From assembly GCA_963733845.1 (NCBI GenBank), contig CAVTEM010000007.1:420763-484762 (forward strand): 64,000 nucleotides of DNA. Reading direction: 5' to 3'. Shown here one piece after another: positions 17,344-38,213 of this stretch. Both the position numbers and the translations under genes were made by a program. Position 1 is the stretch's first letter; every line of letters starts with the position of its first letter. The notes below the pieces were generated by a model. That model was not told where the DNA came from and did not search any database. It saw only the letters and a program-made list of their open reading frames with translations. Origin of the DNA: an uncultured Actinomycetes bacterium (lineage in GTDB: Bacteria; Actinomycetota; Thermoleophilia; Gaiellales; Gaiellaceae).

Positions 17344-17423
17344 AGGCGGGGGGACGAGCTCGGCGGCGGTCGCGGCGCCCGAGGCGGCTCGACGAAGAGA
17401 GTCCGGCGCCGGAGCTCTCCGTC

Positions 17424-18559: not shown

Positions 18560-18572
18560 AGGACCGGGCGGG

Positions 18573-20556: not shown

Positions 20557-20570
20557 GCTCCCGCCGCTCG

Positions 20571-21720: not shown

Positions 21721-21732
21721 GGCGGTCGCCTC

Positions 21733-22778: not shown

Positions 22779-22784
22779 ACCGGC

Positions 22785-23927: not shown

Positions 23928-23936
23928 CCCCTGCGG

Positions 23937-25454
23937 TCAGCGAACTGCTGCCTCCGCCGGCGGTCTCCTGACGACTGCGAGTAGCTCCTCGAGCTCCTCC
24001 CTGCGAACGATCCGAAGCCAGGCGAGGAAGAGGAGGCTCCCGATCAGCAACGCGGCCGTTCCCTTCGCGAGGTTGTCGCCTCCACCCAGCACGAGTGCCG
24101 GCACGAGGAACGCCACGAGAGCAGGCACGACGACGGCACCGACGGCCTTGCCAGCCCCGCGGGCAACGCTGAGGGCATGCGCCCGCAGGGCGAGCACGAC
24201 GATCGCGCCACTCAGCGCGAACGCGGAGATCGTCCCGACCACGGCGATTCCGAAGAGGCCGACATCGAGCGCGACCACCGCGGCAGTCAGCGCCGCGTGC
24301 CCGGCGAGGACGAGCATCGTCCACTTCGCGAGCTGCACGAGCCGGCCTTCGGCCAGCACCACAAGCAGCGGGATCGCCATGAGCTGGGCGGCGAGCACCG
24401 CGGGCGAAAGCACGAGCAGCAGGGTGAAGATGTCGTCGATCTCCGCTTGCGAGAGCTTGGTCAGCAGCCACTCCGCCGGCTGCGGGCCGAGCAGGCAGAG
24501 CGCCGCCACGGCGGGCACGGCAAGCGTCGAAGCTGCACGAAACGCACGAAGCGTCAGGGCACCCGCGGCCGCTCGGTCACTCGCGAAGTCACGGGCGACC
24601 ACCGGCGCGAAGACGACGCTGATCGGGGACGACAAGGCCGCGTTCAGCAGCACCACGAGCATGACCGCGTACCAGTAGACGGAAGCGCGGCCCGCACCCA
24701 CAGTTCCGGCGAAGGCGACCGAGATCAGCGGTGCGATCTGCGTCGCGACGAACGCGACCCCGCCCAGCAGGATCCGCGTCGCCGACACCCGGGCACCGCC
24801 CGGCTCGGGCGCTTCGTGTCTTTCTACTCGCCTCGTGCGTCGACTCTCGCGTCGAAGCTCCAGGGCGATCAGGCCTGCACTCGTGGCCGCTCCAACCGCA
24901 ACAGCCGCGGGAATCCCGTGGATGCCCAGGGGAGGGGTCAAGGCGAGGAAGCCGGCGACCATCGCGACGGCACCGGTCGCAAAGGCGAGCGCGGGGACCC
25001 GGAAGTCGCTCCACGTCGCGAGCATGGCCGCGCCGAGACCGGCGAAGAGGTGCAGGCCGACCGCCGGCCAGAGCAGGAGGAGCGCTACCTGGAATGCGCG
25101 GAGGGCGTCGCCGCTTGCGACCAGCGGCGCGAGCCCGACGCCCACCGCGGCGAACAGGGCTCCGCTGCCCGCAAAGACGAGAGCGATCCCGCGCAACTCC
25201 GTGTGAAAGCGGGCCCCAGTGCCGTCGATCAGCCTCGGAACGGCCGTCATCCGCAGGCTCTGAGCGAGGATGACGAAGACTCCGTAGAGCGCGTTGGCGA
25301 CGAAGAATCCGTCCGTGCTCGCGGAAGCACCGAAGCGGCGCGCAATGAGAACGCCCATCAGCGCCGCTCCGAGCAGGACCGCGATCCCTCCCACCGCGGT
25401 CACGGCGGTGTCGGCCGCGCGGTTACGTGCGACGGCTACCGGCGCCTCGCTCAT
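23937..25454 (-). CDS. MurJ/MviN-like MOP-superfamily flippase (polysaccharide biosynthesis protein)
   Basis: The ATG at 25454 opens MSEAPVAVARNRAADTAVTAVGGIAVLLGAALMGVLIARRFGASASTDGFFVANALYGVFVILAQSLRMTAVPRL, a MurJ-like N-terminus. About 12-14 hydrophobic segments run through the roughly 505 aa. No frame break. Confidence 0.8.
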   Translation of the reverse strand: MSEAPVAVARNRAADTAVTAVGGIAVLLGAALMGVLIARRFGASASTDGFFVANALYGVFVILAQSLRMTAVPRLIDGTGARFHTELRGIALVFAGSGALFAAVGVGLAPLVASGDALRAFQVALLLLWPAVGLHLFAGLGAAMLATWSDFRVPALAFATGAVAMVAGFLALTPPLGIHGIPAAVAVGAATSAGLIALELRRESRRTRRVERHEAPEPGGARVSATRILLGGVAFVATQIAPLISVAFAGTVGAGRASVYWYAVMLVVLLNAALSSPISVVFAPVVARDFASDRAAAGALTLRAFRAASTLAVPAVAALCLLGPQPAEWLLTKLSQAEIDDIFTLLLVLSPAVLAAQLMAIPLLVVLAEGRLVQLAKWTMLVLAGHAALTAAVVALDVGLFGIAVVGTISAFALSGAIVVLALRAHALSVARGAGKAVGAVVVPALVAFLVPALVLGGGDNLAKGTAALLIGSLLFLAWLRIVRREELEELLAVVRRPPAEAAVR

Positions 25455-25480
25455 TGCGCCGCCTGGTGGCCCACCGGCTC

Positions 25481-27404
<1,924 letters not shown>

Positions 27405-27441
27405 GTGGGGAGGCATCGTAGTGAACGACTGTTCGGGCGGT

Positions 27442-28450
27442 ATCAGGAGCGCTCGGCCGCGGCCTCCCGCAGCCGGTAGGCGTGGCGGTGCAGCACGACG
27501 GAGCCCGCGACGACGAACGGGAAGACGTTGAGCGCGTGCAGGACGACCGTGGCGGAAAGCGCCGTGGAGTCGTCGACGCCGTAGGCGCGGAGCGCGATCG
27601 ACCCCGCCGGCCTCGAACACGCCGAGCCCTCCGGGCGCCGACGGGATGACGAGCGAGAGCGTGGTCGTGACGAGGATCAGCACGCCGGCCGAGTAACCGA
27701 GGCCGAGGTCGAAGGCCACGAGCACGAACCAGTTCGAGACCGCGAGGACGAGCCAGGACAGCACGCTCAGCACGAACGCGGGCACGCGCCAGAGCCGGCT
27801 GGTGGAGGGCGCCGAGCGCCGTAGACGAGCCGATCGGCGGCTCCATCGCGTGTGCTCTCGCGTGAGCCAGGGCAGCAGCGCGATCGGCGCGAAGACCACG
27901 CGGATCGGCCGGGCGCCGTAGCGGGCCACGACGACCGCTCCGACCGCGATGAAGAGCAGCAGGACGCCGGCGAGCGATCTCGGCCCGTCGGAGCCAGGTC
28001 ACCTCCGGGCAGGAACGGCGAGACCGCGATCACGAGCAGGAGCAGCGCGAGCACGTCGTAGAGCCGCTCGACGACCGCGGTACCGAGCGACTCGGCCCGC
28101 GACGTGCCCGCTTCCTGGTGCAGGACGACGATGCGCGCGGCCTCGCCCGCTCGGAGCGGCAGGATCGCGTTGAAGAGCTGGCCGACGAGCAGCGCCCGTG
28201 ACCAGCGCGGGCAGCGGAGGGCGCGTCGCAGGCTGGAAGAGCAGCTGCCAGCGCCAGGAGCGGATCACGACGGCGACGGCGATCCCCACCAGGGCGGGGA
28301 CGAGCCAGAGCCACTCGCAATCCTTGAGCGCGTCCCAGAAGAGCTCGAGATCGACGCCCCGCACGGCGAGCCAGAGAAAGAGCGCCGAGACGGCGACTCC
28401 GAGCGATGAGCAGACCTGCGCGGGAGAGCGCTCGCGGCACCGGCGAACCT
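27442..28450 (-). CDS. Flippase-like / LPG_synthase_TM-type membrane protein, copy 1 (frame-disrupted; start unresolved)
   Basis: LGVAVSALFLWLAVRGVDLELFWDALKDCEWLWLVPALVGIAVAVVIRSWRWQLLF is in ORF 27999..28538. ALLVGQLFNAILPLRAGEAARIVVLHQ..LYDVLALLLLVIAV is in ORF 27767..28054. LSWLVLAVSNWFVLVAFDLGLGYSAGVLILVTTTLSLVIPSAPGGLGVFEA lies in the ORF 26706..27929 frame. The tail ..VVLHRHAYRLREAAAERS ends at the TGA at 27442-27444. It has the same architecture as the intact copy at 61452..62414. Confidence 0.6.
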
Positions 28451-28473
28451 TATGTCCTGCAGAATCCGCCCTC

Positions 28474-29242
28474 GTGCAGCCCTCGGAGCTCCGCAGGACG
28501 ATCCTCGAGCAGGCCCACCGCGCGGGCGTCGGCCACATCGGCTCCGCGCTCTCCGTGGTCGAGATCCTCGCCGCCGTCTTCGGCGTGCTCCGCGGCTCGC
28601 CCGACGACCCCGACCGCGACCGCTTCGTGCTCTCGAAGGGGCACGCGGCCCTCGCGCTGTACGCCGCGCTGCACGCCTCCGGCCGCCTCTCCCGCGAGCA
28701 GCTCGAGAGCTACTGCGGCGACGCGACCCTCCTCGGCACCCATCCCGAGCACGAGCTGGACGGCGTCGACTTCTCGACCGGCTCGCTCGGGCACGGGCTC
28801 TCGATCGGCGCGGGCGCGGCGCTCGCGGCCCGGATGCAGGGCTCCGAGCGGCGCGTCTTCGTGCTGGTGAGCGACGCCGAGCTGAACGAGGGCTCGCTCT
28901 GGGAGGCGGCGATGTTCGCGGCGCACCATCGGCTCTCGCGCGCTCGTCGCCGTCGTGGACGCCAACGGCCAGCAGGCGCTCGGCCACACGAAGGACGTGC
29001 TCGACCTGGAGCCGATCGCCGACCGCTTCGCCGCCTTCGGCTGGGAGCCCGTCGAGGTCGACGGCCACGACGTCGACGCGCTGACGGCCGCATTGGAGTC
29101 GGTCGGCGAGCGCCCGCGGGCCGTGATCGCCCGGACGACGTTCGGGAAGGGCGTCTCGTACATGGAGGGCCTCGTGAAGTGGCACTACTGGCCGATGTCC
29201 GACGACGACTTCGCCGCGGCGCTCGCCGAGGTCTCCGCGTGA
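28474..29242 (+). CDS. Transketolase, N-terminal (ThDP-binding) subunit (one frame switch)
   Basis: The GTG at 28474 opens VQPSELRRTILEQAHRAGVGHIGSALSVVEILAAVF..DRFVLSKGHAALALYAAL..THPEHELDGVDFSTGSLGHGLSIGAGAALAARMQGSERRVFVLVSDAELNEGSLWEAAMFAAHHRL. There is a switch near 28945 into ORF 28955..29242: DANGQQALGHTKDVLDLEPIADRFAAFGWEPVEVDGHDVDAL. Confidence 0.8.
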
Positions 29243-30168
29243 GGAAGGCCTTCGCGGCGGCGCTCGTCGACCTGGCCGCGCGCGGACGAGCGGGTCGTGC
29301 TGCTGACCGGCGACCTCGGCTACACCGTGCTCGAGCCCTTCGCCGAGCGCTTCGGCGACCGGTTCGTCAACGTCGGCGTCGCCGAGCAGAACATGGTCGG
29401 GCTCGCGACCGGGCTCGCGGAGGCCGGCTACGTGCCGTTCTGCTACTCGATCGCGACCTTCGGGTCCCTGCGCCCGTACGAGTTCGTGCGCAACGGCCCG
29501 GCCGCGCACGGCCTGCCCGTGCGGATCGTCGGCGTCGGCGGCGGCTTCGACTACGGCGAGAACGGGCTCTCGCACTACGCGCTCGAGGACGTGGCCGTCA
29601 TGCGCGTCCAGCCGCGGATCACGGTGCTGGCGCCGGCCGACGACGAGCAGACCGCGGCGGCCGTCGCGGCCACTGCCGACCTCACCGGCCCCGCCTACCT
29701 CCGAGTCGCCAAGGCGGGTCCGCCCGTCCCGGGCCTGGAGGGGCGCTTCCAGCGTCGGCCGTGCCGAGCTGCTCGGCGAGGGGACCGACGTTGCGCTGGT
29801 CGCCCTGGGCGGCGCGGCCATGGAGGCGGTCCAGGCCGCCGAGCTGCTCCGGGCGGACGGCGTCGGCGCGACGGTCGCGGTCGTCTCGAGCTTCAACCCC
29901 TCGCCGGTCGAGGACCTCGTCGCGCTGCTCGGCCCGCGTCCCGCTCGCGGTCTCCGTGGAGGCGCACTACGTCGACGGCGGCCTGGGCTCGCTCGTCGCC
30001 GAGACGATCGCGGAGGCGGGGCTCGACTGCCGGCTCGTGCGCTGCGGCGTGCGGTCGATGCCGACGGGCGAGTCGGGCAGCCGCGAGTTCCTGCAGGAGA
30101 AGCACGGCCTCTCGCCGGCAGCGATCGCCCGCGCAGTGCTGCAGGCGGCCCCCCGGAGCGCGGTCTGA
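29238..30168 (+). CDS. Transketolase, C-terminal (Pyr/C-terminal domain) subunit (frame-disrupted as given)
   Basis: GTGA overlap with the previous stop. The gene reads (V)RKAFAAALVDLAAR, then ORF 29297..30838 gives LLTGDLGYTVLEPFAERFGDRFVNVGVAEQNMVGLATGLAEAGYVPFCYSIATF..RIVGVGGGFDYGENGLSHYALEDVAVMRVQP. MEAVQAAELLRADGVGATVAVVSSFNPSPVEDL follows in ORF 29820..30467, and then VSVEAHYVDGGLGSLVAETIAEAG..LQAAPRSAV, ending at 30168. Confidence 0.8.
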
Positions 30169-30838
30169 ACAGCGTCGTCCTGCCCATCCACAACCAGGCC
30201 GACCACCTGGAGGAGGTCATGGAGGGGTACCTGGCCGAGCTCGGGCGGCTGGACGTCCCGACCGAGATCGTGCTCGTGCCGAACGCGTGCCGCGACCGCT
30301 CCCCGAGATCTGCCGCTCGCTGGCCGAGCGCAACGAGGCCGTGCAGGTGGTCGAGCTCGCCGAGGGCGGCTGGGGCCGGGCCGTCCGCGCGGGTCTCGCC
30401 GCGGCGCGCGGCGACGTGCTCTGCTACACGAACTCGGCCCGCACCCAGCCGCCGATGCTCACGCTGATGCTCGTCTACGCGGCCGCGTATCCGGGCGTCG
30501 TGCTGAAGGCGAACCGCACGATCCGCGACAGCTTCCAGCGCCGGGTGGGCTCGCTGCTCTTCAACCTCGAGTGCCGCGCGCTCTTCGACCTGCCGACGAT
30601 GGACGTGAACGGGACGCCGAAGGTCTTCCCGCGGCAGTTCGCGAAGCTGCTCGAGCTCGACCGCGACGACGACCTGATCGACGTCGAGTTCATGCTCGCC
30701 TGCCGGCGCGAGGGCTACCCGCTGATCGAGGTGCCGATCCTCGCCACCGAGCGGCACGGGGCCGAGTCGACGACCAGCTACGGCTCGGCGGTGCGGCTGT
30801 ACACGGGCGCGTGGCGGATGAAGCGTGAGCAGCGATAG
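30165..30838 (+). CDS. GT2 glycosyltransferase (CTG start inferred; one frame switch)
   Basis: (L)NSVVLPIHNQADHLEEVMEGYLAELGRLDVPTEIVLVPNACRDRSP begins exactly at the CTG of a CTGA overlap with the transketolase stop. There is a switch near 30300 into the ORF 29297..30838 frame: EICRSLAERNEAVQVVELAEGGWGRAVRAGLAAARGDVLCYTNSAR..DVNGTPKVFPR..DVEFMLACRREGYPLIEVPI. No ATG or GTG in frame nearby upstream. Confidence 0.7.
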
Positions 30839-31894
30839 GTGGTCGACTCACGACGCCGAGTGGCGCGACCCGCGGCAGGTCGTGGCGCTCTGGGCCGGCG
30901 GCGAGCGCCCGAGCCTGCGCACCCGCGTGCGCGGGCGGCTTCTGGGAGGCGCTCGAGGGCGTCTGCCTGCTCGTCACGCGCGAGTACGAGCACCTCGTCG
31001 TGGCGCTGGCGGGCGGCGGCCAGACGCACATGGCGCTCCCGCACCCGTCCGGGCTGGCCGTCTCGGACGAGCGCGTGACGGTGGCGAGCACGCGCAACCC
31101 CAACCAGCTGGTCGAGCTGCGGCCGGCCGACGCCGAGGGGAGGCCGCTCGTCCCGGTGCGCACGGCGTTCCATCCCGGCGCGCTCTACCTGCACGAGCTC
31201 GCGTACGTCGGCGGCGTCCTGCACGGGAACGCCGTCGGCCAGAACGCGGTCGTCCGGCTCGACCGCGAGCGCGCCGAGCGCGTGTGGTGGCCGAAGGCGA
31301 TCGAGACGGACGCGGGGCCCGACTTCTCGCGCAACTACCTGCAGCTCAACTCGATCGCGGCCGGGTCGAGCGTGGCGTCGTCGTTCTTCTCCGCGTCGGC
31401 CGACCGGATGTCGGCGCGCCGGCCGGGCCACCGCAACTTCCCGGTCGACCGCCGCGGGGTGATCTTCTCCGGCCGCACGCGCGAGCCGGTCGTCTCGGGC
31501 CTCACGCGGCCGCACTCGGCCCGCCTCCACGAGGGCGAGCTCTGGGTCGACAACTCGGGCTACGGCGAGGTCGGCGTCGCCGACGCCGGCCGCTTCGAGG
31601 CCGTCGCCCGCCTGCCCGGCTGGACGCGCGGGCTCGCGTTCCACGGCGACGTCGCGCTGGTCGGCACGTCGCGCGTGATCCCGCGCTTCCGCATGTACGC
31701 GCCCGGGCTCGACCTCGAGCGCTCGGTCTGCGGGGTGCACGCGGTCGACACGCGCAGCGGCGAGGTGCTCGGCTCGCTCGTCTGGCCCGAGGGCAACCAG
31801 ATCTTCGCCGTCGAGGCCGTTCCGCTGAAGCCTGACGAGCGGGTTCCCGCGCGGCGACCTGCGCGAGCTGTACTACAACCTCCCCTTGCCATGA
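30825..31894 (+). CDS. TIGR03032/DUF4915-like conserved hypothetical protein (frame-disrupted near both ends)
   Basis: The GTG at 30825 opens (M)SSDRWSTHDAEWRDPRQVVALWAG. ORF 31000..33924 then reads LPHPSGLAVSDERVTVASTRNPNQLVEL..GLTRPHSARLHEGELWVDNSGYGEVGVADAGRFEAVARLPGWTRGLAFHGDVALVGTSRV..CGVHAVDTRSGEVLGSLVWPEG. The PHSxR..G.LW..SG.GE....G.FE.VA.LPG.TRGL.F.G..A.VG.S block matches my memory of the uncharacterised TIGR03032 family. The tail FPRGDLRELYYNLPLP ends with an ATGA overlap at 31891-31894. Confidence 0.65.
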
Positions 31895-32806
31895 GCGACT
31901 TCCGCCTCCTGATGATCGGCGCCATGTACGAGAACGGCGGCAACGTCACGCACCGCCTGCTCGACGGGCATCCGCAGCTGTTCGTCTACCCGTTCGAGTC
32001 GCAGCTCGGGACGCGGCTCGTCTCCGACGCGCTGGCCTCGACGTTCCCGGTCAAGTACCGCTGGCCGGTGTTCGACCTGGACGCGACGCCCCGAGCGGAC
32101 TACCACGCGATCATCGACGAGGAGTGCAAGGTGCGCGCGCGGACGCCGCACGTGAGCAAGTTCCGCGACCACCCGTTCGACTTCTCGGACGACGAGCGGC
32201 GCGACCTCTACGTCGCGCACGTCGAGGAGAGCGGCCGCTCGCGCGCGGCCAACATCGAGGCGTTCTTCCGCGCGACCTTCGAGGCGTGGCACGACCACCG
32301 CGGGAGCGGCCGCGAGGAGTGGTACGTCGGCTACAGCCCGATCCTCGTGGTCGACGCGGAGACGATCCTGCGCGAGCTGCCGGGCGCGCACTTCCTCCAC
32401 GTCGTCCGCAACCCCTGGTCGGCCTACGCGGACACGAAGAAGCGGCCCGTGCCGCTCTCGCTCGCCGCGCTACATGCTCGCCTGGTGCCTGAACCAGCAC
32501 TGCGCGCTGCTCGCGCGCGAGCGCTTCCCCGACCGCTTCCACCTCCTGCGCACCGAGGACACGCTCGAGGGCGCGCTGCCCGAGCTGTGCGGCCGGATCG
32601 GGCTCGAGGAGTCGGACTCGCTGGCGACGCCGAGCTGGAACGGCGAGCCGCTCGCCGAGGTGTACCCGTGGGGGACGATCCGGACGGCGACGCCCGAGGC
32701 GAACCGCGCCACCGCCGAGGAGCTCTCCGCGGAGGAGCGCGACGAGGTGCGCGTCCGGGCCGGCCTGTTCCTGGAGGCGCTGGGCTACGACGACTTCCTC
32801 GCCTGA
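31891..32806 (+). CDS. Sulfotransferase-family-like protein (one frame switch)
   Basis: MSDFRLLMIGAMYENGGNVTHRLLDGHPQLFVYPFESQLG..GAHFLHVVRNPWSAYADTKKRP carries an RNPxD/S-type 3'-PB-like block. There is a switch near 32470 into ORF 32474..32806: LAWCLNQHCALLARERFPDRFHLLRTEDTLEGALPELCGRIGLEE. The N-terminal P-loop-like element is atypical, so confidence is moderate. Confidence 0.55.
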
Positions 32807-33688
32807 CCCGTCCTCGTCACGGGCGCGGCCGGGTTCGTCGGCGCCAACCTCGTCCGGCGGCTGCTCGCCGACGGCGCTCGCGTCGTCGCGCTCGTCCGGC
32901 CGGGCGGCGACCCGTGGCGGCTCGAGGGGCTCGACGTGGACGTGGTCGAGGCGGACGTGCGCGAGAGTCGTCCCGGGCGGCTTCGGCCTCGTCTACCACC
33001 TCGCCTCCCACGGCGCCTACTCGTGGCAGGACGACGAGGCCGCCGATCCGCGAGACGAACGTGCTCGGCACCGAGAACGCGCTCCGCGCCGGCGAGCGGG
33101 TCGTCGTGGCGGGCTCGTCGTCCGAGTACGGGCTGAAGGACCACGCGCCCGCCGAGGACGAGGCCGCCGAGCCGAACAGCGCCTACGCGGCCGCGAAGGC
33201 GGCGGCGACGGCGCTCGCGATGGAGCAGGGCGCGGTCGTGCTGCGGCTCTACTCCGCGTACGGGCCGTGGGAGGAGCCGGACCGGCTCGTGCCGACGCTG
33301 CTCGGCAAGGCGCTCGCAGGCGAGCTGCCGCCGCTCGTGTCGCCGCGTGTCGCGCGGGACTTCGTCCACGTCGACGACGTCTGCGAGGCGTTCGTCACCG
33401 CTGCACGGTCCGCGCCGCGCCGGCCGCGTCTACAACGTGGGTTCCGGCCGCCAGACGACCATCGCCGAAATCGTCGAGGCCGTGCGAGCACTCGCCGGCG
33501 TCGAGGCCGAGCCGCAGTGGGGCTCGATGCCCGACCGCAGCTGGGACACCGAGACGTGGGTCTCGAACCCGGCGCGGATCCGCGCGGAGCTGGGCTGGGA
33601 GGCGCGGATCGGGCTGGACGACGGCCTCGCCCGGACGCTCGACTGGCTCAGGACGCAGGCCCCGCCGGAGCGCTACATGGTGTCCTAG
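32803..33688 (+). CDS. NAD-dependent epimerase/dehydratase/reductase (extended SDR; frame-disrupted; CTG start inferred)
   Basis: VLVTGAAGFVGANLVRRLLADGARVVALVRPGGDPWRLEGLDVDVVEADVR begins right after the sulfotransferase TGA, with a CTGA junction at 32803. The gene continues NVLGTENALRAGERVVVAGSSSEYG..NSAYAAAKAAATAL (YxxxK)..RLYSAYGPWEEPDRLVPTLL. ORF 33347..33688 then gives VYNVGSGRQTTIAEIVEAV..ELGWEARIGLDDGLARTLDWL. Confidence 0.7.
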
Positions 33689-33948
33689 GCCGGCGGCGGA
33701 GCGGCCGCGTGCTTCACTCGCTCGAAGCACGCTTCGTGGCACGGGTACTCCGCCTCGCGCGGCGGGTTCGACACATGGACGCGGTACGCGTCGCGCGCGT
33801 CGGGCTCGATCCACTCGCCGCACACCAGGCATGCGCCGCCTCGCGAGAGGACGCGATCCTCGACCCGGTCCGGGATCTCGGCCCGGTTCGGATCGTGCAT
33901 GACCTCCGTGACAGCCATCGCTAGATGCGGCGCGGGAAACCCACGCAA
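33685..33948 (-). CDS. Small Cys/His-rich protein (putative zinc-binding), unknown function
   Basis: ORF MRGFPAPHLAMAVTEVMHDPNRAEIPDRVEDRVLSRGGACLVCGEWIEPDARDAYRVHVSNPPREAEYPCHEACFERVKHAAAPPPA. Third codon positions are about 90% G/C by eye, which supports coding. It has CxxC plus CHxxC. The start could be 33948, 33918 or 33900. The 3' end overlaps the convergent SDR stop. Confidence 0.5.
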   Translation of the reverse strand: MRGFPAPHLAMAVTEVMHDPNRAEIPDRVEDRVLSRGGACLVCGEWIEPDARDAYRVHVSNPPREAEYPCHEACFERVKHAAAPPPA

Positions 33949-34027
33949 CTCTCACGGTAGCCGCTCGACTGTGGGGGCGGGGACTGGGCGGCGTGGGGTC
34001 CCGTCCAGTCCCCGATCCCCTCGTGGG

Positions 34028-35726
34028 TCACTTGAAGGTCCGGACCACGTGTTCGGCCGTGCGCCAGGCCGTCGCCTGGATCGTCTGGGTCGGGTTGCGG
34101 CCCGCCGAGCTCGGGAAGACCGAACCGCCGATGATGCCGAGGTTCGGCACCTCGTGGGACATGCCCCAGCGGTCGACGACGTTGACGGCCGGGTCGTCGC
34201 CCATCCGCGTCCCGCCGTAGGCATGTGTGCTCAGCGAGCGGGCACCCGGCGCCGCCGTCCAGACCTCGGCCGCGCCCGCGGCCTTCAGCCACTCGACCAT
34301 CTTCCCCTGCACGTAGTCGGACTCACGGCGCTCGTTGTCGTGGAAGTCGTTGGTGATCCGGATCACCGGCCGGCCGAGCGGGTCCCTGACAGCCGGGTCG
34401 AGGTCGAGGTAGTTGTCCACGTACGAGAGCACCTCGAGCTGGGCGCCGACGCCGGCGACCGAGTCGGCGTTCTTCGCCAGCCAGGCCTTCCACTGCGAGC
34501 CCCAGCGCGGGACGCTGGGCGGGATCGAGTTCGCGGTTCCGATCGGCTTCGCTTCCATCGTCGCGCTGGCCATGCCCCCGCCGATGAAGCCGAGGCCGGT
34601 GTGGTCGAAGTTGTCGGCGTCCCAATCGTCCAGCGCCGTGAACTGCCCCAGCGTGCCGCTGTAGCGGTTCAATCGCTTCCCCGGGAACCAGCCGGTGGCG
34701 CCTGCGGAGCCGAGGCCGTGCGCGATGTAGTGCTTGCCGACCTGGCCGTGGTTGTTCGAGAGCCCGTTCGGAAAGGCTCTGCGATGTCGAGAGCAGCAGC
34801 AGGCGCACGTTGCCGTACGTGTACGCGGCGAGCAGCACGACCTTCGCCGGCTGAAAGTACTCGCGCCTGTTCTTGAGGTAGAGCACGCCCGACGCGCGGC
34901 CCTGGCTGTCGACCTCGATGCGGAGCGCGTCCGCCGTCGGGACGACCTTCAGGTTCTTCGTCTTCTCGGCGGCCGGGATGTAGTCGACGTTGGTCTGGAC
35001 CTTGGCGTTCGTGTAGCAGCCCGTCCAGCCGCAGAAGCCGCAGTACGTGCAACCGGACTTGCCGCGGTACGCCTTCGAGCGGATTCCGGCCGGGCCGGGA
35101 TACGGATGCCAGCCGACCGACTTCGCGGCGGCCGTCATCATGTCCGTGAAGCCGGAGTTGCGGAGCGCCGGAAGCGGGTACTTGCGCCGGCGCGGCCCTT
35201 CGAAGGGGTTCCCCCGCGGGTCGAGCTTCCCCTGCAGGTTCCCGTGCTGGCCGGAGACCCCCGCGAAGTACTCGTGCTTGTCGTAGTACGGCTCGAGCTC
35301 GGCGTAGTCGATCGGCCAGTCGATCGAAGTCGAGTCCTTCGGGATCGCGTTCGGCCCGTAGCGCTTGATCGACTCCGACACGGTCTTGAAGTTCCACGGC
35401 AGGAATCGCCAGCTCTGGGTCATCCAGTGGATCGACGTGCCGCCGACCGCATTCATCATCGGGCCGACCGCACCGAGCGGGCGGGTCGCGGCGACGCGCG
35501 CGTTCGGTCGCGTCGTGGGCACCTCCTTGTTGGCCTTGAAGCGGCCCCACGTGTCGCGAATGTCGTTCTTGATCTCGTCGAACGGGTAGTCCTTCACGGT
35601 CGCGCGCGGCCCCGCCTCGAGGGCGACGACCTTCATGCCCGCGTTCGCGAGCGGCCAGACGGCGGTGCCGCCTGCCGCGCCGGTGCCGATGACGACGACA
35701 TCGACCGGCTTCAGCATCTCGGGCAT
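34028..35726 (-). CDS. GMC-family FAD oxidoreductase (gluconate 2-dehydrogenase flavoprotein-like; one frame switch)
   Basis: MPEMLKPVDVVVIGTGAAGGTAVWPLANAGMKVVALEAG carries the FAD GxGxxG motif. The gene continues ..GGTSIHWMTQSWRF..CTYCGFCGWTGCYTNAK..VVLLAAYTYGNVRLLLLS (ORF 34323..35726). There is a switch near 34750 into ORF 34028..34672: ..THAYGGTRMGDDPAVNVVDRWGMSHEVPNLGIIGGSVFPSSAGRNPTQTIQATAWRTAEH. Confidence 0.85.
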
Positions 35727-36408
35727 GTCAGTACCTCCTTCGCCGCGGTCTTGAACAGCGGGATCGAGTAGGCCGACTGCATGTTCGCCTTCGGCTTGAC
35801 ATTGAGGCGCTGGTCGCGCGCACTGATCACGAGCCGCGGGCCGGGGAACCGCACGAGCTTCCAGCCGACGAGGTTCGTGTTCCCACCGTGCTCGGGTCGC
35901 CGAACATGCCCTGGACGGCGTGCGTGCGGAACATCTCGAACACCGCCTTGCCGTTCGGCACGAACTCCGACGGCGTGGCTCGATTCAGGTCCATGTCGGT
36001 CAGCACCGCGTCCTGCCTGTCGGCAGGCAGCGCGGCGAACGTGGCGCCGTGCTTGGCGAGCGCGTACCCATCGAGCGCGTTGATGGCGGCCGTGTACGCG
36101 AGCCTGAACGGCCTGAGATCGCCGGCCAACGCGCGGTCGATGTAGCGCGCGACATTGGCCTCTTTCGCGCCGGGCCCCGTCGCGTCGGACGGGATCAGGC
36201 GGTCGCAGACGGCGGCGATGGTTCTGGCCTCTCCGGGAGAGAGGGTCTTCATTTGCCGCAGTTCGGCGAGCTCCGCCTCGGCACGAGCAGCGTCCGGCTT
36301 CAGCACCGTCGGTACGGCGGCGGCTGCGCCGAACACGCCCGCCCGCTTGAGGAGTTCGCTGCGAGACAGGGGTGTAGAGGGTGCCTTTTCCTCCCCTGAG
36401 CAGTCCAT
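35711..36408 (-). CDS. Gluconate 2-dehydrogenase subunit-3-like small subunit with Tat-like signal (one frame switch)
   Basis: The ATG at 36408 has GGAGGA upstream. The gene opens MDCSGEEKAPSTPLSRSELLKRAGVFGAAAAVPTVL and continues ..CDRLIPSDATGPGAKEANVARYIDRAL..FAALPADRQDAVL..HAVQGMFGDP. There is a switch near 35895 to EHGGNTNLVGWKLVRFPGPRL..NMQSAYSIPLFKTAAKEVLT... The 3' end overlaps the GMC gene start. Confidence 0.65.
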
Positions 36409-36514
36409 TCGTCCTCCGATCGGAACGCGGGTATGTGGCGCGATCACTTTAAGCCAGCGGCGCGCGCTCTGCAATACTTCGCACGTTCGTCCAACAAACT
36501 GAAGGGAGTGACGC

Positions 36515-36884
36515 ATGGTCCGCCGGTTGTTCGTTCTTGCGACACTCGCCGTGGGGGCACTCGCTGCGGGCGTGGTCGCCATCGCCGCTCTCGCGCCGGC
36601 GGCGTCCGGCACGAACAGCGCGAAGTACACCGTCACGGCGCGTGACTTCAGGTTCGCGATCGTTCCGGCGCGGCTCAAGGCCGGAAGGCAGACGTTCACC
36701 GTCATCAATCGCGGCGAGGCCACGCACGACTTCAAGATCGGCACGAAGAAGACCCGGCTCCTGAACCCAGGCCAGCGCCAGACGATCACGGTGACGCTCA
36801 AGAAGGGCCGCCGCTACACGGTGCATCTGCACCGTTCCGGGCCACGTGGCGCTCGGGATGAAGAAGACGATGGTCGCGCGATGA
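36515..36884 (+). CDS. Secreted cupredoxin (type-1 copper-like) protein (one frame switch)
   Basis: The signal peptide is MVRRLFVLATLAVGALAAGVVAIAALAPAASG. The mature part reads YTVTARDFRFAIVPARLKAGRQTFTVINRGEATHDFKI..LNPGQRQTITVTLKKGRRYTVH. Removing one base near 36825 gives CTVPGHVALGMKKTMVAR*, a C-x4-H-x4-M copper-ligand set. The TGA at 36882-36884 overlaps the next ATG. Confidence 0.7.
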
Positions 36885-37012
36885 GCGAGGAAGAGCTCGA
36901 GGACGAGCCGCAGCCCGAGGATCAACCGGCCGAGCCCGAGCTCGAGGAGATCCCGGAGAACGTCCCGGACGACTGGCTGGAACAGAAGCCCTTCGATCCG
37001 GCCGGTCGCTAG
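36881..37012 (+). CDS. Possible 43-aa highly acidic peptide (speculative)
   Basis: MSEEELEDEPQPEDQPAEPELEEIPENVPDDWLEQKPFDPAGR, with an ATGA overlap to the repaired cupredoxin stop. It could instead be an artefact of the frame error, because the ORF track shows it fused to the cupredoxin. Confidence 0.25.
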   Translation: MSEEELEDEPQPEDQPAEPELEEIPENVPDDWLEQKPFDPAGR

Positions 37013-37027
37013 AACGACGCTCGCGCC

Positions 37028-37585
37028 CTACAGGGTCGGCGGTGTGACCACGGCCAGCACGATCGCCTTGCTCTTCCCCAGGTTCCTGTAGGTGTGCCGT
37101 CGGTTGGCGCGGAAGTGCACGGTGTCGTGCTTCCGCAGGATGATCGGCTCGTGACCGTCGATCTCCGCCTGGATCGACCCGCGCAGCACGTGCACGATCT
37201 CTTCTCCTTCGTGCTCCGAGTAATCGGCCAGCCCGCCGCCCGGCTCGAAGATCGCGACGACCGGCATCATCATCCGGCCGTCCGTCTCGGAGGTGAGCAG
37301 GTAGACGTCGATTCCCTCGGCCGGCGACAGGACGTGCTGCCCGTCGCCGTCGCGAACCACGATCGGATCCTGGCCCGGTGACGGTGGCAGGAGGTCGGAC
37401 AGGTGCACGCCGTAGAAGGCAACGAGCCGGATCAGGCGCCCGATCGTGATGTCCGTCCGACCGGTCTCGACAAGGGACAGGAAGGACTGGGAGATGCTCG
37501 TATCCTGTGCGACCTGGGCGAGCGATAAGCCGCGCTCGCGCCGGAGCGCGCGCAGGCGCTCGCCGAGCTCAGGCTGGGCCGACAT
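37028..37585 (-). CDS. XRE-family HTH transcriptional regulator with C-terminal cupin domain
   Basis: The ATG at 37585 opens MSAQPELGERLRALRRERGLSLAQVAQDTSISQSFLSLVETGRTDITIGRLIRLVAFYGV, an HTH_3 region. The cupin-like part is ..GGLADYSEHEGEEIVHVLRGSIQAEIDGHEPIILRKHDTVHFRANRRHTYRN. Intact. Confidence 0.85.
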   Translation of the reverse strand: MSAQPELGERLRALRRERGLSLAQVAQDTSISQSFLSLVETGRTDITIGRLIRLVAFYGVHLSDLLPPSPGQDPIVVRDGDGQHVLSPAEGIDVYLLTSETDGRMMMPVVAIFEPGGGLADYSEHEGEEIVHVLRGSIQAEIDGHEPIILRKHDTVHFRANRRHTYRNLGKSKAIVLAVVTPPTL

Positions 37586-37610
37586 GCGTTCAAAGGGTAA
37601 CCGGCCGGCG

Positions 37611-38213
37611 CTATGCGGGCCTGGATCGCGGCGCACGGATTGCCCGCGTAGCGATCGGGCCGAGGCGCAGCGACTCGTCCGCCTCGACCCGTAGTCCTGC
37701 GCGATCGAGCAGAGCGAGCAGCGGTCGGCGTGCGGGCGCATGTGCTCGCCGCGGTCGTGGTCGATGAACCAGCGGCCGACACGGTTGCGCTGCTCGGTCA
37801 CAGGCTCGAGCGAGACGACGGCTCCTGAGGCCAGCTCGCGCGCCGTCGTCAGCACGGACACCGCCGCCTCGTCCGGCAGGTGGTGCAGGAAGTCGACCAT
37901 CAGCACGAGGTCGAAGCGCTCGCCCTCGGCGACCAGCTCGGACGCATCGACGCAGCGGAACGTATGTCGCTCGTCGCCGCGCCGTCGGCGCGCGTGGTCC
38001 ACGTAAGGGCAATTCAGGTCGACTCCTACGTAGCGGCCGCGCTGTCAGCGAGGCGTACTGGCCGATCCCGCAACCGATGTCGAGCACGCTCGGCTCGCCG
38101 TCGAGCAGCCCCCAGCGGGCGAGCAGCGCCCTGCGCCGCCGGTAGAGCCCGAACGTGAGGTCGAGCCCGACGCGGCTCGCCTCCCACACCAGCGGCCGGT
38201 CGAGGGCGCTCAC
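37611..38213 (-). CDS. SAM-dependent methyltransferase (frame-disrupted as given)
   Basis: The GTG at 38213 forms a GTGA overlap with the upstream stop. The gene opens (V)SALDRPLVWEASRVGLDLTFGLYRRRRALLARWGLLDGEPSVLDIGCGIGQYASL (motif I). ORF 37028..38002 then reads VDHARRRRGDERHTFRCVDASELVAEGERFDLVLMVDFLHHLPDEAAVSVLTTARELASGAVVSLEPV. The tail LALLDRAGLRVEADESLRLGPIATRAI ends at 37611. Confidence 0.65.
   Translation of the reverse strand: MSALDRPLVWEASRVGLDLTFGLYRRRRALLARWGLLDGEPSVLDIGCGIGQYASLTARPLRRSRPELPLRGPRAPTARRRATYVPLRRCVRAGRRGRALRPRADGRLPAPPAGRGGGVRADDGARAGLRSRRLARACDRAAQPCRPLVHRPRPRRAHAPARRPLLALLDRAGLRVEADESLRLGPIATRAIRAPRSRPA

What the first reader, a model, noticed from the sequence alone, without database searches (positions are those of the whole stretch)
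30825..33688. TIGR03032/DUF4915-like protein, sulfotransferase-like protein and SDR as one coupled module
Three genes are chained by overlaps, with the first also overlapping the GT2 upstream (30825-30838); the junctions are ATGA at 31891 and CTGA at 32803. The first matches, from memory, the uncharacterised TIGR03032 family (PHSxR..LW..SGxGE..LPGxTRGLxFxG block), whose function is unknown. The second has sulfotransferase-like RNPWSAYAD and ..LLRTEDTLE..LGL blocks but an atypical N-terminal PAPS-loop region. Tight coupling suggests the DUF acts with the sulfotransferase, for example as substrate-presenting or lyase/epimerase partner on the same sugar. No PAPS-synthesis genes (cysC/cysN/cysD) are in the window.
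Basis: partly seen in the sequence, partly recalled or inferred. Interest (0 to 1): 0.65.

Follow-up and report, generated by a model that had tools for sequence, protein, structure and literature searches.

The report
Conserved six-gene sugar-tailoring cassette
The three genes are real but frame-broken in this record, and they are half of an unstudied six-gene cassette, found almost unchanged in at least 13 bacterial phyla, that most likely adds a two-carbon branch to an activated sugar rather than a sulfate.

Summary
The DUF4915, sulfotransferase-like and SDR genes exist at 30825-33688. None is an intact ORF: six private single-base insertions break them, and frame breaks run through much of the window. 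All relatives are intact, so assembly error is the likely cause.

PF16261 scores 160.8 bits. TIGR03032 scores 104.8, below its cut-off of 251.5. Sulfotransfer_3 scores 33.7 against 27 and misses the PAPS loop. PF01370 scores 134.7.

The GT2/DUF4915 overlap and the ATGA junction are real and conserved. The CTG at 32803 is out of frame with the SDR.

The unit is six genes: split transketolase-like N and C subunits, GT2, DUF4915, ST-like, SDR. It appears in 80 loci from at least 13 phyla, and nothing else is conserved around it. Distant rearranged versions keep the same families next to CDP-glucose synthase, CDP-glucose 4,6-dehydratase, GtrA and full-length ArnC-type transferases.

The ST-like protein has a sulfotransferase fold, but acidic residues replace both PAPS-phosphate contacts. 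No PAPS-synthesis genes are linked.

Best reading (inferred): two-carbon branching of a nucleotide-4-keto sugar by the transketolase-like enzyme, with DUF4915 and the ST-fold protein as obligate partners of unknown chemistry. No paper mentions it.

The parts
27431..28403 (-). LPG_synthase_TM-like (flippase-like) membrane protein, divergent from the cassette. Lineage-specific neighbour, not part of the conserved core. Frame-broken.
   Evidence: tblastn with the L001 protein gives 4 pieces in alternating frames. The L001 orthologue carries PF03706. A jackhmmer seed finds the family in only 7 of 80 loci.
28474..29242 (+). Transketolase-like N-terminal (ThDP/PP-domain) subunit, tktN. One frame break near 28938.
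   Evidence: tblastn 91-95% identity to L001 tktN in frames 1 then 2. Orthologues carry PF00456. The ThDP and catalytic residues H26, H66, H100, D155, N185 are kept relative to E. coli TktA.
29239..30168 (+). Transketolase-like C-terminal (Pyr + C domain) subunit, tktC. Its GTG overlaps the tktN stop (GTGA). About three frame breaks (29284, 29751, 29933).
   Evidence: Orthologues carry PF02779 and PF02780. E411, H473 and R358 are kept. H461->G, D469->N/Q/M, and the S385 loop is deleted.
30165..30838 (+). Short GT2-fold protein (about 224 aa). CTG 30165 overlaps the tktC stop and is in frame with the N-terminus LNSVVLPIHNQ. 1-nt deletion at 30302. No TM segment and no DXD motif.
   Evidence: PF00535 in orthologues. 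Nearest solved structures are ArnC and GtrB. CYTN[SLA]ART replaces DAD(LQ) in about 75 of 80 loci. No hydrophobic 19-mer.
30825..31894 (+). DUF4915 beta-propeller protein (355 aa when mended). GTG start overlaps the GT2 stop by 14 nt. Private +1 insertions at about 30936 and 31828.
   Evidence: PF16261 160.8 bits; TIGR03032 104.8 bits, below 251.5. 96% identical to the intact P0001. AF2 model pLDDT 85.7, a propeller with only generic Foldseek matches.
31891..32806 (+). Sulfotransferase-fold protein (304 aa when mended) with a degenerate PAPS site. ATGA coupling to DUF4915. Net +1 at 32464-32470.
   Evidence: PF13469 33.7 bits covering residues 86-239 only. 93% identical to the intact P0121. 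The model matches TPST1/2, the OLS/CurM ST domain and Stf1/Stf9. Glu14 and Asp181 replace the phosphate-binding Arg and Ser.
32807..33688 (+). Extended SDR (NAD-dependent epimerase/dehydratase family). GAAGFVG, SSSEYG and YAAAK motifs present. Three +1 insertions (32966, 33045, 33418). Start codon unresolved.
   Evidence: PF01370 134.7 bits. tblastn in four frame pieces. Nearest solved structures for the L082 orthologue are GalE-type epimerases, MoeE5, Rmd and RmlB. Junction analysis.

Best explanation
The three genes are the distal half of a single operon of six translationally coupled genes. The order is tktN-tktC (split, transketolase-like ThDP enzyme), a short GT2-fold protein, the DUF4915 beta-propeller, a sulfotransferase-fold protein, and an extended SDR. 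The unit is a self-contained cassette that is strongly conserved across phyla.

Proposed mechanism, all inferred:
1. A nucleotide-activated 4-keto-6-deoxyhexose is the substrate. In this window it could come from the adjacent Gmd-type dehydratase. In distant variants it comes from CDP-glucose synthase plus CDP-glucose 4,6-dehydratase encoded in the same operon.
2. The transketolase-like enzyme transfers a two-carbon (hydroxyacetyl) unit from a ketose or hydroxypyruvate donor onto the keto carbon. This gives a branched eight-carbon sugar.
3. The SDR reduces or epimerises it.
4. The sugar is then passed to a carrier or acceptor. In variants with a full-length ArnC/GtrB-type GT2 and GtrA, that acceptor is polyprenyl phosphate, for decoration of an envelope glycan.

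The ST-fold protein and DUF4915 are obligate partners of the transketolase step. Their role would be substrate presentation or processing of the new side chain, not a classical PAPS-dependent sulfation unit.

Shown: the gene content, its conservation, the motif states and the folds. Inferred: the substrate, the C2 transfer and the roles of the two partner proteins. In this record the genes are frame-broken, most likely by assembly errors.
For: Cassette and conservation:
- L001 (89% nt identity) has all six genes intact in the same order.
- 310 relatives were found in 185,579 species genomes. In the best 80 loci the only conserved families are DUF4915 (80), GT2 (79), ST-like (78), tktC (69), SDR (68) and tktN (64). 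Fifty loci show the full order, and most of the rest are cut by contig ends.
- All six proteins are about 45-75% identical across phyla.

Rearranged distant variants keep the same families with explicit nucleotide-sugar entry enzymes:
- L103: G1P cytidylyltransferase (436.6 bits, cut-off 300), CDP-glucose 4,6-dehydratase (443.8, cut-off 278), then tktN, tktC, ST-like, SDR, GtrA, a 321-aa PgfS/ArnC-like GT2, DUF4915 and an aldo-keto reductase.
- L096, Pseudolabrys sp. FHR47: G1P cytidylyltransferase, dehydratase-like SDR, NDP-sugar dehydrogenase, ST-like, DUF4915, SDR, tktN, tktC and a GT2 with 2 TM segments.
- L097, L095 and L102: tktC is followed directly by the ST-like gene.

Enzyme features:
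- The TK-like enzyme keeps its ThDP and catalytic residues but loses the sugar-phosphate contacts H461 and D469.
- The ST-like protein has the sulfotransferase fold but acidic residues at both PAPS-phosphate positions.
- cysC/N/D are not linked to the cassette.

Precedent: split-gene TKs are proposed to transfer hydroxyacetyl to a keto sugar in miharamycin and amipurimycin biosynthesis. E1-like AviB1/B2 and Pau11/12, and YerE, add C2 branches to 4-keto sugars (PMC12247030; PMC4425429).

Frame breaks:
- Window-versus-L001 differences are mostly synonymous (DUF4915 37 synonymous, 9 non-synonymous).
- The breaks are private to the window and strongly insertion-biased.

Operon structure: no promoter-like or terminator-like site lies between the tktN start and the SDR stop; the one terminator-like hit (28383-28395) lies upstream of tktN.
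Against: - No enzyme of the cassette has been assayed, and no glycan structure is known for any carrier.
- The six-gene form has no nucleotidyltransferase or dedicated dehydratase of its own.
- Its GT2 lacks both the DXD motif and TM helices, so transfer to polyprenyl phosphate is doubtful for this form.
- Flippase or GT-C partners are near the cassette in only a few lineages.
- Transketolases normally use aldehyde acceptors, and even the miharamycin precedent is untested in vitro.
- The ST-like model is of moderate confidence (pLDDT 68.5). The motif mapping rests on an ungapped extension from a HMMER anchor.
- Glu36 and Arg173, which match the catalytic base and the 3'-phosphate Arg of real sulfotransferases, are conserved.
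- The roles given to DUF4915 and the ST-like protein are guesses.
Confidence: 0.45

Rival explanations
1. The ST-like protein is a genuine PAPS- (or APS-) dependent sulfotransferase that sulfates the sugar or glycan. DUF4915 acts as its partner, as a lyase, epimerase or substrate presenter. Sulfation might also serve as an activating leaving group, as in CurM/OLS.
For: Pfam Sulfotransfer_3 is above the gathering score (33.7 against 27). The fold matches TPST, the OLS/CurM ST domain, Stf1 and Stf9. Arg173 in VVRNP and Glu36 are conserved. Some canonical TIGR03032 genes on plasmids lie beside cysC (Nostoc) or near a sulfotransferase (Gloeothece). An Asp at the 3'-phosphate position could in principle select APS.
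Against: The HMM match omits the PAPS-loop region (profile positions 1-35). The basic residue of P-[KR]-S-G-[ST]-T is replaced by an acidic one (Glu14; Glu or Asp in all 25 aligned members), and the 3'-phosphate Ser by an invariant Asp181, down to 25% identity. There is no NCBIfam hit. Across about 95 loci cysC is found in 0, cysN in 1 and cysD in 2, and none is in the window. The ST-like gene tracks tktC more tightly than any glycan-acceptor gene.
Confidence: 0.2
2. The cassette makes or remodels a soluble small molecule, such as an unusual sugar phosphate, glycoside or cofactor-like compound, rather than a branched nucleotide sugar for a glycan. The transketolase-like enzyme would work on phosphorylated or free sugars, and the GT2-fold protein would act as a nucleotide-binding or non-canonical transferase.
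For: The six genes are self-contained, with no conserved flippase, GT-C or nucleotidyltransferase nearby. The cassette GT2 has no TM segment and no DXD. R358 of the TK phosphate site is kept. A phage-like contig carries the ST-like gene and the split TK with an APH-family kinase in place of DUF4915.
Against: Distant variants embed the same families between CDP-glucose synthase and 4,6-dehydratase on one side and GtrA plus a full-length ArnC-type GT2 on the other. In the window's lineage the cassette lies inside a glycan locus with Gmd, GT4s, a MurJ-like flippase and DUF6311. H461 and D469 of the sugar-phosphate pocket are lost.
Confidence: 0.15
3. In this organism the module is a decaying pseudogene cluster. 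The frameshifts are real mutations and the locus is no longer functional.
For: Every gene of the cassette is frame-broken. Frame breaks are unevenly spread: dense at 26.8-41.1 kb, with only 3 in 41-64 kb. The source reads could not be found to check them.
Against: The indels are about 20 net +1 insertions against about 3 deletions, whereas bacterial gene decay is usually biased toward deletions (general knowledge, not tested here). There are no in-frame stops or large deletions. Substitutions relative to L001 are mostly synonymous. All related contigs that cover these sites lack the extra bases. Similar break density is seen in many other genes of the window (55 breaks) and, at a lower level, in another long-read MAG, L002. 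There are none in the Illumina contig L001.
Confidence: 0.1

Closest known systems
Split-gene transketolases proposed to add a hydroxyacetyl branch to a keto sugar in miharamycin and amipurimycin biosynthesis (review PMC12247030)
   Same: A two-subunit transketolase-family ThDP enzyme encoded beside sugar oxidoreductases or dehydratases that generate a keto sugar. A C2 branch would give a tertiary alcohol and a higher-carbon sugar.
   Different: Those cases are secondary-metabolite clusters. Only 13 putative examples are known, all from Streptomycetes, and none has been characterised in vitro. This cassette is in at least 13 phyla, sits in or near envelope-glycan genes, and always carries two extra proteins (DUF4915 and an ST-fold protein). 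I could not check those two against the miharamycin and amipurimycin clusters. Sequence relatedness to those TKs was not tested.
AviB1/AviB2 and Pau11/Pau12 (E1 alpha/beta-like) and YerE: ThDP-dependent C2 branching of 4-keto sugars (eurekanate, paulomycose, yersiniose)
   Same: The logic is the same: NDP-hexose, then a 4-keto(-6-deoxy) sugar, then ThDP-dependent two-carbon addition at C-4, then ketoreduction. The yersiniose route also starts from CDP-glucose, like variants L096 and L103.
   Different: These use a different ThDP superfamily branch (pyruvate-dehydrogenase E1-like or acetolactate-synthase-like), with pyruvate as donor giving an acetyl branch. None has a DUF4915 or ST-fold partner.
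Polyprenyl-phosphate sugar modification systems (ArnA/ArnC/ArnT; GtrA/GtrB/Gtr)
   Same: ArnC and GtrB are the nearest solved relatives of the GT2. Variants L103 and L096 have full-length PgfS/ArnC-like GT2s, and L103 also has GtrA. Solirubrobacter-type loci carry GtrA and a PMT_2 GT-C enzyme. A 4-keto nucleotide sugar is tailored before transfer to lipid.
   Different: The cassette-type GT2 is 207-231 aa, with no TM helices and TN[SLA] in place of DAD. No aminotransferase or formyltransferase is present. A flippase or GT-C partner is usually not adjacent.
PAPS-dependent sulfotransferases of the Sulfotransfer_3 type (TPST1/2, the CurM/OLS activating ST domain, mycobacterial Stf1/Stf9)
   Same: Same fold (Foldseek probability 1.0, TM about 0.55). 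Conserved VVRxP Arg, a Glu after the GHP motif, and the C-terminal ED...LG block.
   Different: The loop is Y-E-N-G-G-N instead of P-R-S-G-[ST]-T, and Asp replaces the 3'-phosphate Ser. Both changes are conserved through the whole clade of 1,409 cluster representatives as sampled.
Canonical TIGR03032 family proteins (cyanobacteria, planctomycetes, alphaproteobacteria)
   Same: The same Pfam domain (DUF4915), with shared C-terminal blocks at 28-45% identity.
   Different: The window's protein scores far below the TIGR03032 cut-off. Six of the seven canonical members examined on plasmids sit next to, or are fused to, giant surface or secreted proteins (choice-of-anchor Q, Ig-like, cadherin-like, autotransporter, FG-GAP). 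None has a transketolase or the ST-like partner.

Membership tests
Pfam PF16261 (DUF4915) | HMM score at or above the gathering score (35 bits) over most of the model | tested here: met
   160.8 bits, residues 44-333 against profile 10-308 of 316, on the hand-mended protein. The intact orthologues are precomputed as PF16261.
NCBIfam TIGR03032 (hypothetical equivalog) | Whole-protein score at or above the curated cut-off of 251.5 bits | tested here: not met
   104.8 bits. The Pseudolabrys variant scores 146.1 bits. It is related to the family but not a member.
PAPS-dependent sulfotransferase (Pfam PF13469 Sulfotransfer_3) | HMM score at or above the gathering score (27 bits) | tested here: met
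   33.7 bits, but only residues 86-239 against profile 36-213 of 216. The N-terminal PAPS-loop part of the model is not matched. No Sulfotransfer_1 hit and no NCBIfam hit.
PAPS-dependent sulfotransferase (Pfam PF13469 Sulfotransfer_3) | Sulfotransferase (P-loop-like alpha/beta) fold | tested here: met
   The AF2 model (pLDDT 68.5, pTM 0.74) has TPST1/2, the OLS ST domain 4gox, Stf1 and Stf9 as top PDB matches, E 1e-7 to 1e-4, TM about 0.5-0.55.
PAPS-dependent sulfotransferase (Pfam PF13469 Sulfotransfer_3) | 5'-phosphosulfate-binding loop P-[KR]-[ST]-G-[ST]-T with its basic residue | tested here: not met
   The loop is Y13-E14-N15-G16-G17-N18. Counting back from the GHP anchor that HMMER aligned to 4gox, the Arg of PRSGST (4gox, CurM, TPST1) falls on Glu14. 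That position is Glu or Asp in all 25 members down to 25% identity.
PAPS-dependent sulfotransferase (Pfam PF13469 Sulfotransfer_3) | 3'-phosphate-binding motif: Arg, then Ser eight residues later | tested here: not met
   Arg173 is invariant. The Ser of VRHPYAVIES in 4gox aligns with Asp181, which is invariant across the family.
PAPS-dependent sulfotransferase (Pfam PF13469 Sulfotransfer_3) | Sulfuryl transfer from PAPS | not testable with these tools
   This needs a binding or 35S assay. Genomic linkage to cysC/N/D is absent, though that is not a defining feature.
Extended SDR, NAD-dependent epimerase/dehydratase (PF01370) | HMM above threshold, GxxGxxG, catalytic Ser/Thr and YxxxK | tested here: met
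   134.7 bits. GAAGFVG, SSSEYG and YAAAK are read directly in the translation. No NCBIfam equivalog cut-off is reached, so the reaction type (epimerase, dehydratase or reductase) is not assigned.
Transketolase (EC 2.2.1.1), split form | TK N, Pyr and C domains with the ThDP-binding and catalytic residues | tested here: met
   PF00456, PF02779 and PF02780 in the orthologues. H26, H66, H100, D155, N185, E411 and H473 are conserved against E. coli TktA.
Transketolase (EC 2.2.1.1), split form | Equivalog-level score and the sugar-phosphate binding residues (R358, S385, H461, D469, R520) | tested here: not met
   The best NCBIfam scores are 260.8 and 187.5 bits against a cut-off of 488. H461->G, D469->N/Q/M, the S385 loop is deleted and R520 is variable. 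Only R358 is kept.
Polyisoprenyl-phosphate glycosyltransferase (ArnC/GtrB/DPMS type GT2) | GT-A domain with the DXD (DADLQ) metal site and C-terminal TM or interface helices | tested here: not met
   PF00535 is present and ArnC and GtrB are the nearest solved structures. However, DAD aligns with TN[SLA] in about 75 of 80 loci, and no hydrophobic segment exists in the 223-231 aa proteins. The 312-321 aa GT2s of variants L096 and L103 match PgfS/ArnC along their full length, and the L096 GT2 has two TM segments.
ThDP-dependent sugar C-branching systems (split-TK type) | ThDP enzyme encoded with enzymes that make a nucleotide-4-keto sugar | tested here: met
   L103 has CDP-glucose synthase and CDP-glucose 4,6-dehydratase (both above equivalog cut-offs) directly upstream of tktN. 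L096 has CDP-glucose synthase and a dehydratase-like SDR. The window has a Gmd-type dehydratase about 0.8 kb upstream, divergent.
ThDP-dependent sugar C-branching systems (split-TK type) | Transfer of a C2 unit to the keto carbon of the sugar | not testable with these tools
   This needs an in vitro assay or a product structure. Even the published precedent is unproven in vitro.

The most novel reading that the evidence does not exclude
A split transketolase, a sulfotransferase-fold protein that no longer binds PAPS, and the DUF4915 beta-propeller form a previously unrecognised three-enzyme core. This core builds a hydroxyacetyl-branched (eight-carbon) nucleotide sugar. Spread by horizontal transfer, it decorates envelope glycans in at least 13 bacterial phyla, and possibly a jumbo phage. 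That would give first functions to DUF4915 and to a clade of about 1,400 clusters of 'sulfotransferases' that are not sulfotransferases.
Probability: 0.3. Interest if true: 0.75.

Novelty: new variant of a known kind. Interest (0 to 1): 0.6.

Why it matters
DUF4915/TIGR03032 has no function, and no paper in the searched library mentions it. This work places one large subfamily in a fixed six-gene context with a ThDP enzyme and nucleotide-sugar enzymes, which turns "unknown" into a testable biochemical hypothesis.

If the transketolase-type branching is right, a reaction so far only proposed for two Streptomyces antibiotics would be a widespread route to higher-carbon sugars in the cell envelopes of soil and freshwater bacteria. 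These include Acidobacteriota, Chloroflexota, Cyanobacteria, Planctomycetota, Dormibacterota and Binatia.

The work also flags a whole clade annotated as "sulfotransferase" whose PAPS site is replaced. That matters for inferring sulfated glycans from genome annotation.

A cultured strain with a complete genome, Pseudolabrys sp. FHR47, carries a variant, so genetics and glycan chemistry are feasible.

Tried and rejected
- Literature: no paper holds TIGR03032, DUF4915 or PF16261. Searches combining transketolase with sulfotransferase, CDP-glucose or O-antigen terms found nothing on this cassette.
- Sequence search of PDB: the DUF4915 profile found nothing. The ST-like single sequence found nothing meaningful.
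- Fold search for DUF4915 against PDB and viral models gave only generic propellers (YWTD, 6-phosphogluconolactonase, WD40) at TM about 0.5. No functional lead came from it.
- Rosetta-stone idea: apparent DUF4915-ST and ST-SDR fusion proteins among the cluster representatives have only partial domain matches. They are probably frameshifted gene calls across the ATGA overlap, so I rejected them as evidence.
- Polyprenyl-phosphate route as a universal feature: seeds for LPG_synthase_TM, GtrA, PMT_2 and DUF6311 hit only 1-7 of 80 loci. These partners are lineage-specific.
- PAPS supply linkage: cysC/N/D seeds hit 0, 1 and 2 loci.
- Source reads: no run holds more than 14% of the window's 31-mers, so the frameshifts could not be checked on the original reads.
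- Rfam scan of the whole window found nothing, so no TPP riboswitch. The promoter/terminator scan found no site between the tktN start and the SDR stop; the one terminator-like hit (28383-28395) lies upstream of tktN.
- The paper on the amipurimycin/miharamycin clusters (PMC6774755) is not held. I therefore could not check whether those clusters contain ST-like or DUF4915 genes.
- CTG 32803 as the SDR start is rejected because it is out of frame in the window and in L001.

Full report
**1. What is in the sequence**

- DUF4915: frame 0 (30825-30935), frame 1 (30934-31830), frame 2 (31829-31894).
- ST-like: frame 1 (31891-32463), frame 2 (32465-32806).
- SDR: frames 2, 0, 1 and 2, with changes at 32966, 33045 and 33418.

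I hand-joined the fragments for the HMM scans.

| Protein | Model | Score (bits) | Threshold (bits) |
|---|---|---|---|
| DUF4915 | PF16261 | 160.8 | 35 |
| DUF4915 | TIGR03032 | 104.8 | 251.5 |
| ST-like | PF13469 Sulfotransfer_3 | 33.7 | 27 |
| SDR | PF01370 | 134.7 | 20.9 |

The Sulfotransfer_3 match covers only residues 86-239 against profile positions 36-213. The ST-like protein has no NCBIfam family.

**2. The frame breaks**

A metagenome contig, L001, is 89% identical in DNA over window 27463-33676. It encodes all the genes uninterrupted. The alignment shows that every frame change in the finding is a single extra base in the window, at 30936, 31828, 32966, 33045 and 33418, plus a net +1 at 32464-70. 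There is also one missing base at 32808. The same pattern continues upstream through the transketolase, GT2 and membrane-protein genes: about 20 net insertions against about 3 deletions.

Logan contigs from three soil metagenomes and one rhizosphere metatranscriptome cover these sites. One or more contigs leave out one letter at each of 30939, 31832, 32468, 32966, 33045 and 33419.

Substitutions between the window and L001 are mostly synonymous: DUF4915 37 synonymous against 9 non-synonymous, ST-like 33 against 15, SDR 21 against 10.

I wrote a frame tracker based on G+C by codon position. It finds 55 same-strand frame changes without a stop codon in the window (9.3 per 10 kb). It finds 0 in L001 and 0-1.9 per 10 kb in seven other high-G+C loci. 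L002, another long-read MAG, shows 5.5. The tracker recovers the sites already known from the alignment. The breaks are dense at 26.8-41.1 kb and rare at 41-64 kb.

I conclude that the breaks are private to this record and most likely assembly errors. Recent real decay cannot be excluded, because the source reads were not found.

**3. Junctions**

- GT2/DUF4915: a 14-nt overlap at 30825-30838. Confirmed and conserved in L001.
- DUF4915/ST-like: ATGA at 31891. Confirmed and conserved.
- ST-like/SDR: the letters CTGA are at 32803, but CTG is out of frame with PVLVTGAAGFVG. The window, L001 and L002 have no canonical start before the Rossmann motif. L082 and L017 use ATGA there.
- Further upstream: tktN/tktC overlap as GTGA at 29239. 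tktC/GT2 overlap as CTGA at 30165, where the CTG is in frame with the GT2 N-terminus, as in L001.

No promoter-like or terminator-like site lies between the tktN start and the SDR stop; the one terminator-like hit (28383-28395) lies upstream of tktN.

**4. The unit is six genes and is very widely conserved**

The DUF4915 search returned more than 3,000 homologues. The best 120 are 58-96% identical and come from many phyla. A scan of one genome per species found 310 relatives. The best 80 loci come from 13 groups:
- Actinomycetota
- Acidobacteriota
- Bacillota (Heliomicrobium)
- Chloroflexota
- Dormibacterota
- Cyanobacteriota, including Melainabacteria
- Armatimonadota
- Methylomirabilota
- Planctomycetota
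- Binatota
- Desulfobacterota
- Elusimicrobiota
- FCPU426

tblastn and all-against-all clustering show that only six families are conserved in these loci: DUF4915 (80), GT2 (79), ST-like (78), tktC (69), SDR (68) and tktN (64). Fifty loci show tktN-tktC-GT2-DUF4915-ST-SDR in that order, and most of the rest are cut by contig ends. In 71 of 78 loci the ST-like gene begins within 150 nt of the DUF4915 stop.

Membrane partners (LPG_synthase_TM, GtrA, PMT_2, DUF6311) occur near the cassette in only 1-7 loci each.

**5. Distant variants reveal the pathway context**

A profile search with the ST-like family found 1,409 cluster representatives. I looked up members 25-49% identical to the window's protein.

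| Locus | Source | Gene order |
|---|---|---|
| L096 | Pseudolabrys sp. FHR47, complete genome | RmlD-like, glucose-1-P cytidylyltransferase (412.7 bits, cut-off 300), dehydratase-like SDR, NDP-sugar dehydrogenase, ST-like, DUF4915, SDR, tktN, tktC, 312-aa GT2 with two TM segments |
| L103 | metagenome contig | glucose-1-P cytidylyltransferase (436.6 bits), CDP-glucose 4,6-dehydratase (443.8, cut-off 278), tktN, tktC, ST-like, SDR, GtrA, 321-aa PgfS/ArnC-like GT2, DUF4915, aldo-keto reductase |
| L097 | metagenome contig | tktN-tktC-ST-DUF4915 |
| L086 | metagenome contig | NDP-sugar dehydrogenase-ST-DUF4915 |
| L095, L102 | metagenome contigs | tktC-ST |
| L098 | 210-kb phage-like contig | ST-like, an APH-family kinase in place of DUF4915, tktN, tktC, with GT2 and SDR genes nearby |

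The same families therefore travel together through at least four gene orders. They sit next to enzymes that make a CDP-4-keto-6-deoxyhexose and next to enzymes that load sugars on polyprenyl phosphate. In the window itself, a Gmd-type dehydratase (PF16363, 243.5 bits) lies just upstream on the other strand.

**6. The individual proteins**

- *DUF4915.* The AF2 model has pLDDT 85.7 and is a beta-propeller. PDB and viral fold matches are generic at TM about 0.5. A profile search of PDB sequences finds nothing. About a third of the residues are invariant across phyla, with many Arg, His and Asp.
- *ST-like.* The model has pLDDT 68.5, and its best matches are TPST1/2, the OLS/CurM ST domain, Stf1 and Stf9. 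HMMER aligns VVRNPWSAYAD to VRHPYAVIES of 4gox, and LLDGHPQLFVYP to MLAGHPGLYSPP. With the true PDB sequences, the Arg of PRSG[ST]T falls on Glu14 and the 3'-phosphate Ser falls on Asp181. Both acidic residues are kept in all 25 family members aligned, down to 25% identity.
- *TK-like.* The ThDP and catalytic residues are kept. H461, D469 and the S385 loop are lost. NCBIfam scores are about half the equivalog cut-off.
- *GT2.* The nearest solved relatives are ArnC and GtrB. The cassette form has no TM segment, and TN[SLA] stands in place of DAD.
- *SDR.* It has GxxGxxG, SSSEYG and YxxxK. It is nearest to GalE-type epimerases, MoeE5, Rmd and RmlB, and no equivalog assignment is possible.

PAPS-synthesis genes are not linked to the cassette.

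**7. Interpretation**

These points are shown:
- a six-gene operon;
- its extreme conservation and self-contained nature;
- its association, in variants, with CDP-glucose synthase and 4,6-dehydratase and with polyprenyl-phosphate transferases;
- retained ThDP chemistry with an altered substrate pocket;
- a sulfotransferase fold with both PAPS-phosphate contacts replaced.

The following is inferred. The TK-like enzyme transfers a hydroxyacetyl unit to the keto carbon of a nucleotide-4-keto-6-deoxyhexose. The SDR reduces or epimerises the product. The ST-fold protein and DUF4915 assist or process this step. The sugar then ends up on an envelope glycan.

The closest precedent is the split-gene transketolases proposed, but never shown in vitro, for miharamycin and amipurimycin. 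Related precedents are the E1-like AviB1/B2 and Pau11/12 systems and YerE.

The motif evidence and the missing PAPS linkage weaken it.

**8. Novelty**

No paper in the library mentions the family names, and none describes this cassette. I rate it a new variant of a known kind, namely ThDP-dependent tailoring of nucleotide sugars. It has two obligate partner proteins of unknown chemistry and an unusually broad phylogenetic spread.

Noticed in passing
window 1-64000 (dense at 0-3.7, 7.4-10.5, 14-18 and 26.8-41.1 kb; sparse at 41-64 kb): There are 55 same-strand reading-frame changes without a stop codon. Nearly all those that could be checked against L001 are +1 insertions. The Illumina contig L001 has none, and another long-read MAG locus (L002) has an intermediate density. 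This looks like insertion-biased consensus error concentrated in some regions.
   Followed up: partly
window 33677-37631: A block of about 3.95 kb is absent from L001, between the SDR and the convergent methyltransferase. It holds a GMC oxidoreductase (N and C domains in different frames), a Gluconate_2-dh3 subunit with a twin-arginine-like leader, a cupredoxin-like ORF (36515-37012) and an XRE-HTH plus cupin regulator.
   Followed up: partly
window 30165-30168; L001 3848-3851: The tktC stop and the GT2 N-terminus overlap as CTGA, with CTG in frame with LNSVVLPIHNQ and no canonical start available. The gene caller on L001 instead started the GT2 16 codons later, which cuts off the first beta-strand. 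A CTG start, or reinitiation, seems to be used here.
   Followed up: partly
window 32804-32830; L001 6485-6510; L002 about 11975-12000: In this actinobacterial lineage the SDR has no ATG, GTG or TTG between the ST-like stop and its GxxGxxG motif. It lies in the +1 frame relative to the ST-like gene in L001 and L002. Other lineages have a normal ATGA overlap or a spacer. How the SDR is initiated here is unexplained.
   Followed up: partly
L088-L094 (plasmids of Synechocystis PCC 6714, Planctomyces SH-PL62, Gloeothece PCC 7822, Nostoc ATCC 53789, Phyllobacterium sp. 628, Acaryochloris): Canonical TIGR03032 genes sit next to, or are fused to, giant surface or secreted proteins of 1,000-2,900 aa (choice-of-anchor Q, Ig-like, cadherin-like, autotransporter, FG-GAP) in 6 of 7 cases. 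In Nostoc cysC is directly upstream. In Gloeothece a sulfotransferase and glycosyltransferases lie within 5 kb.
   Followed up: partly
L098 / L099 (Logan contigs, 210 kb and 25 kb): A phage-like contig carries YopX, ribonucleotide reductase, nucleoside deoxyribosyltransferase and many FkbM-type methyltransferases. It also carries an ST-like gene (44% identical), an APH-family kinase in the place of DUF4915, a shortened split transketolase, and GT2, GT34-like and SDR genes. This may be a viral version of the pathway.
   Followed up: no
proteins P0258, P0267, P0292, P0326, P0345: Database proteins that look like DUF4915-ST-like fusions have only partial DUF4915 matches. They are probably frameshifted gene calls across the 4-nt overlap, not true fusions.
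   Followed up: partly
window 14000-26700 and 2147-3119 (-): Upstream lies a large glycan locus: FkbM-type and other methyltransferases, three or four GT4 genes, a DPMS-like GT2 (17424-), a MurJ-like flippase (about 23937-25500, -) and a Gmd-type dehydratase (about 26.7-27.7 kb, -). A UDP-glucose/GDP-mannose dehydrogenase homologue lies at 2147-3119 (-). Apart from the Gmd-type gene (Pfam) and the dehydrogenase homologue (tblastn), these were read from translations only.
   Followed up: no
window 30700-33700 against run X9: Contigs from a rhizosphere metatranscriptome, 90-99% alike, cover most of the three genes. Close relatives of the cassette are therefore probably transcribed in soil, though DNA carry-over cannot be excluded.
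   Followed up: no
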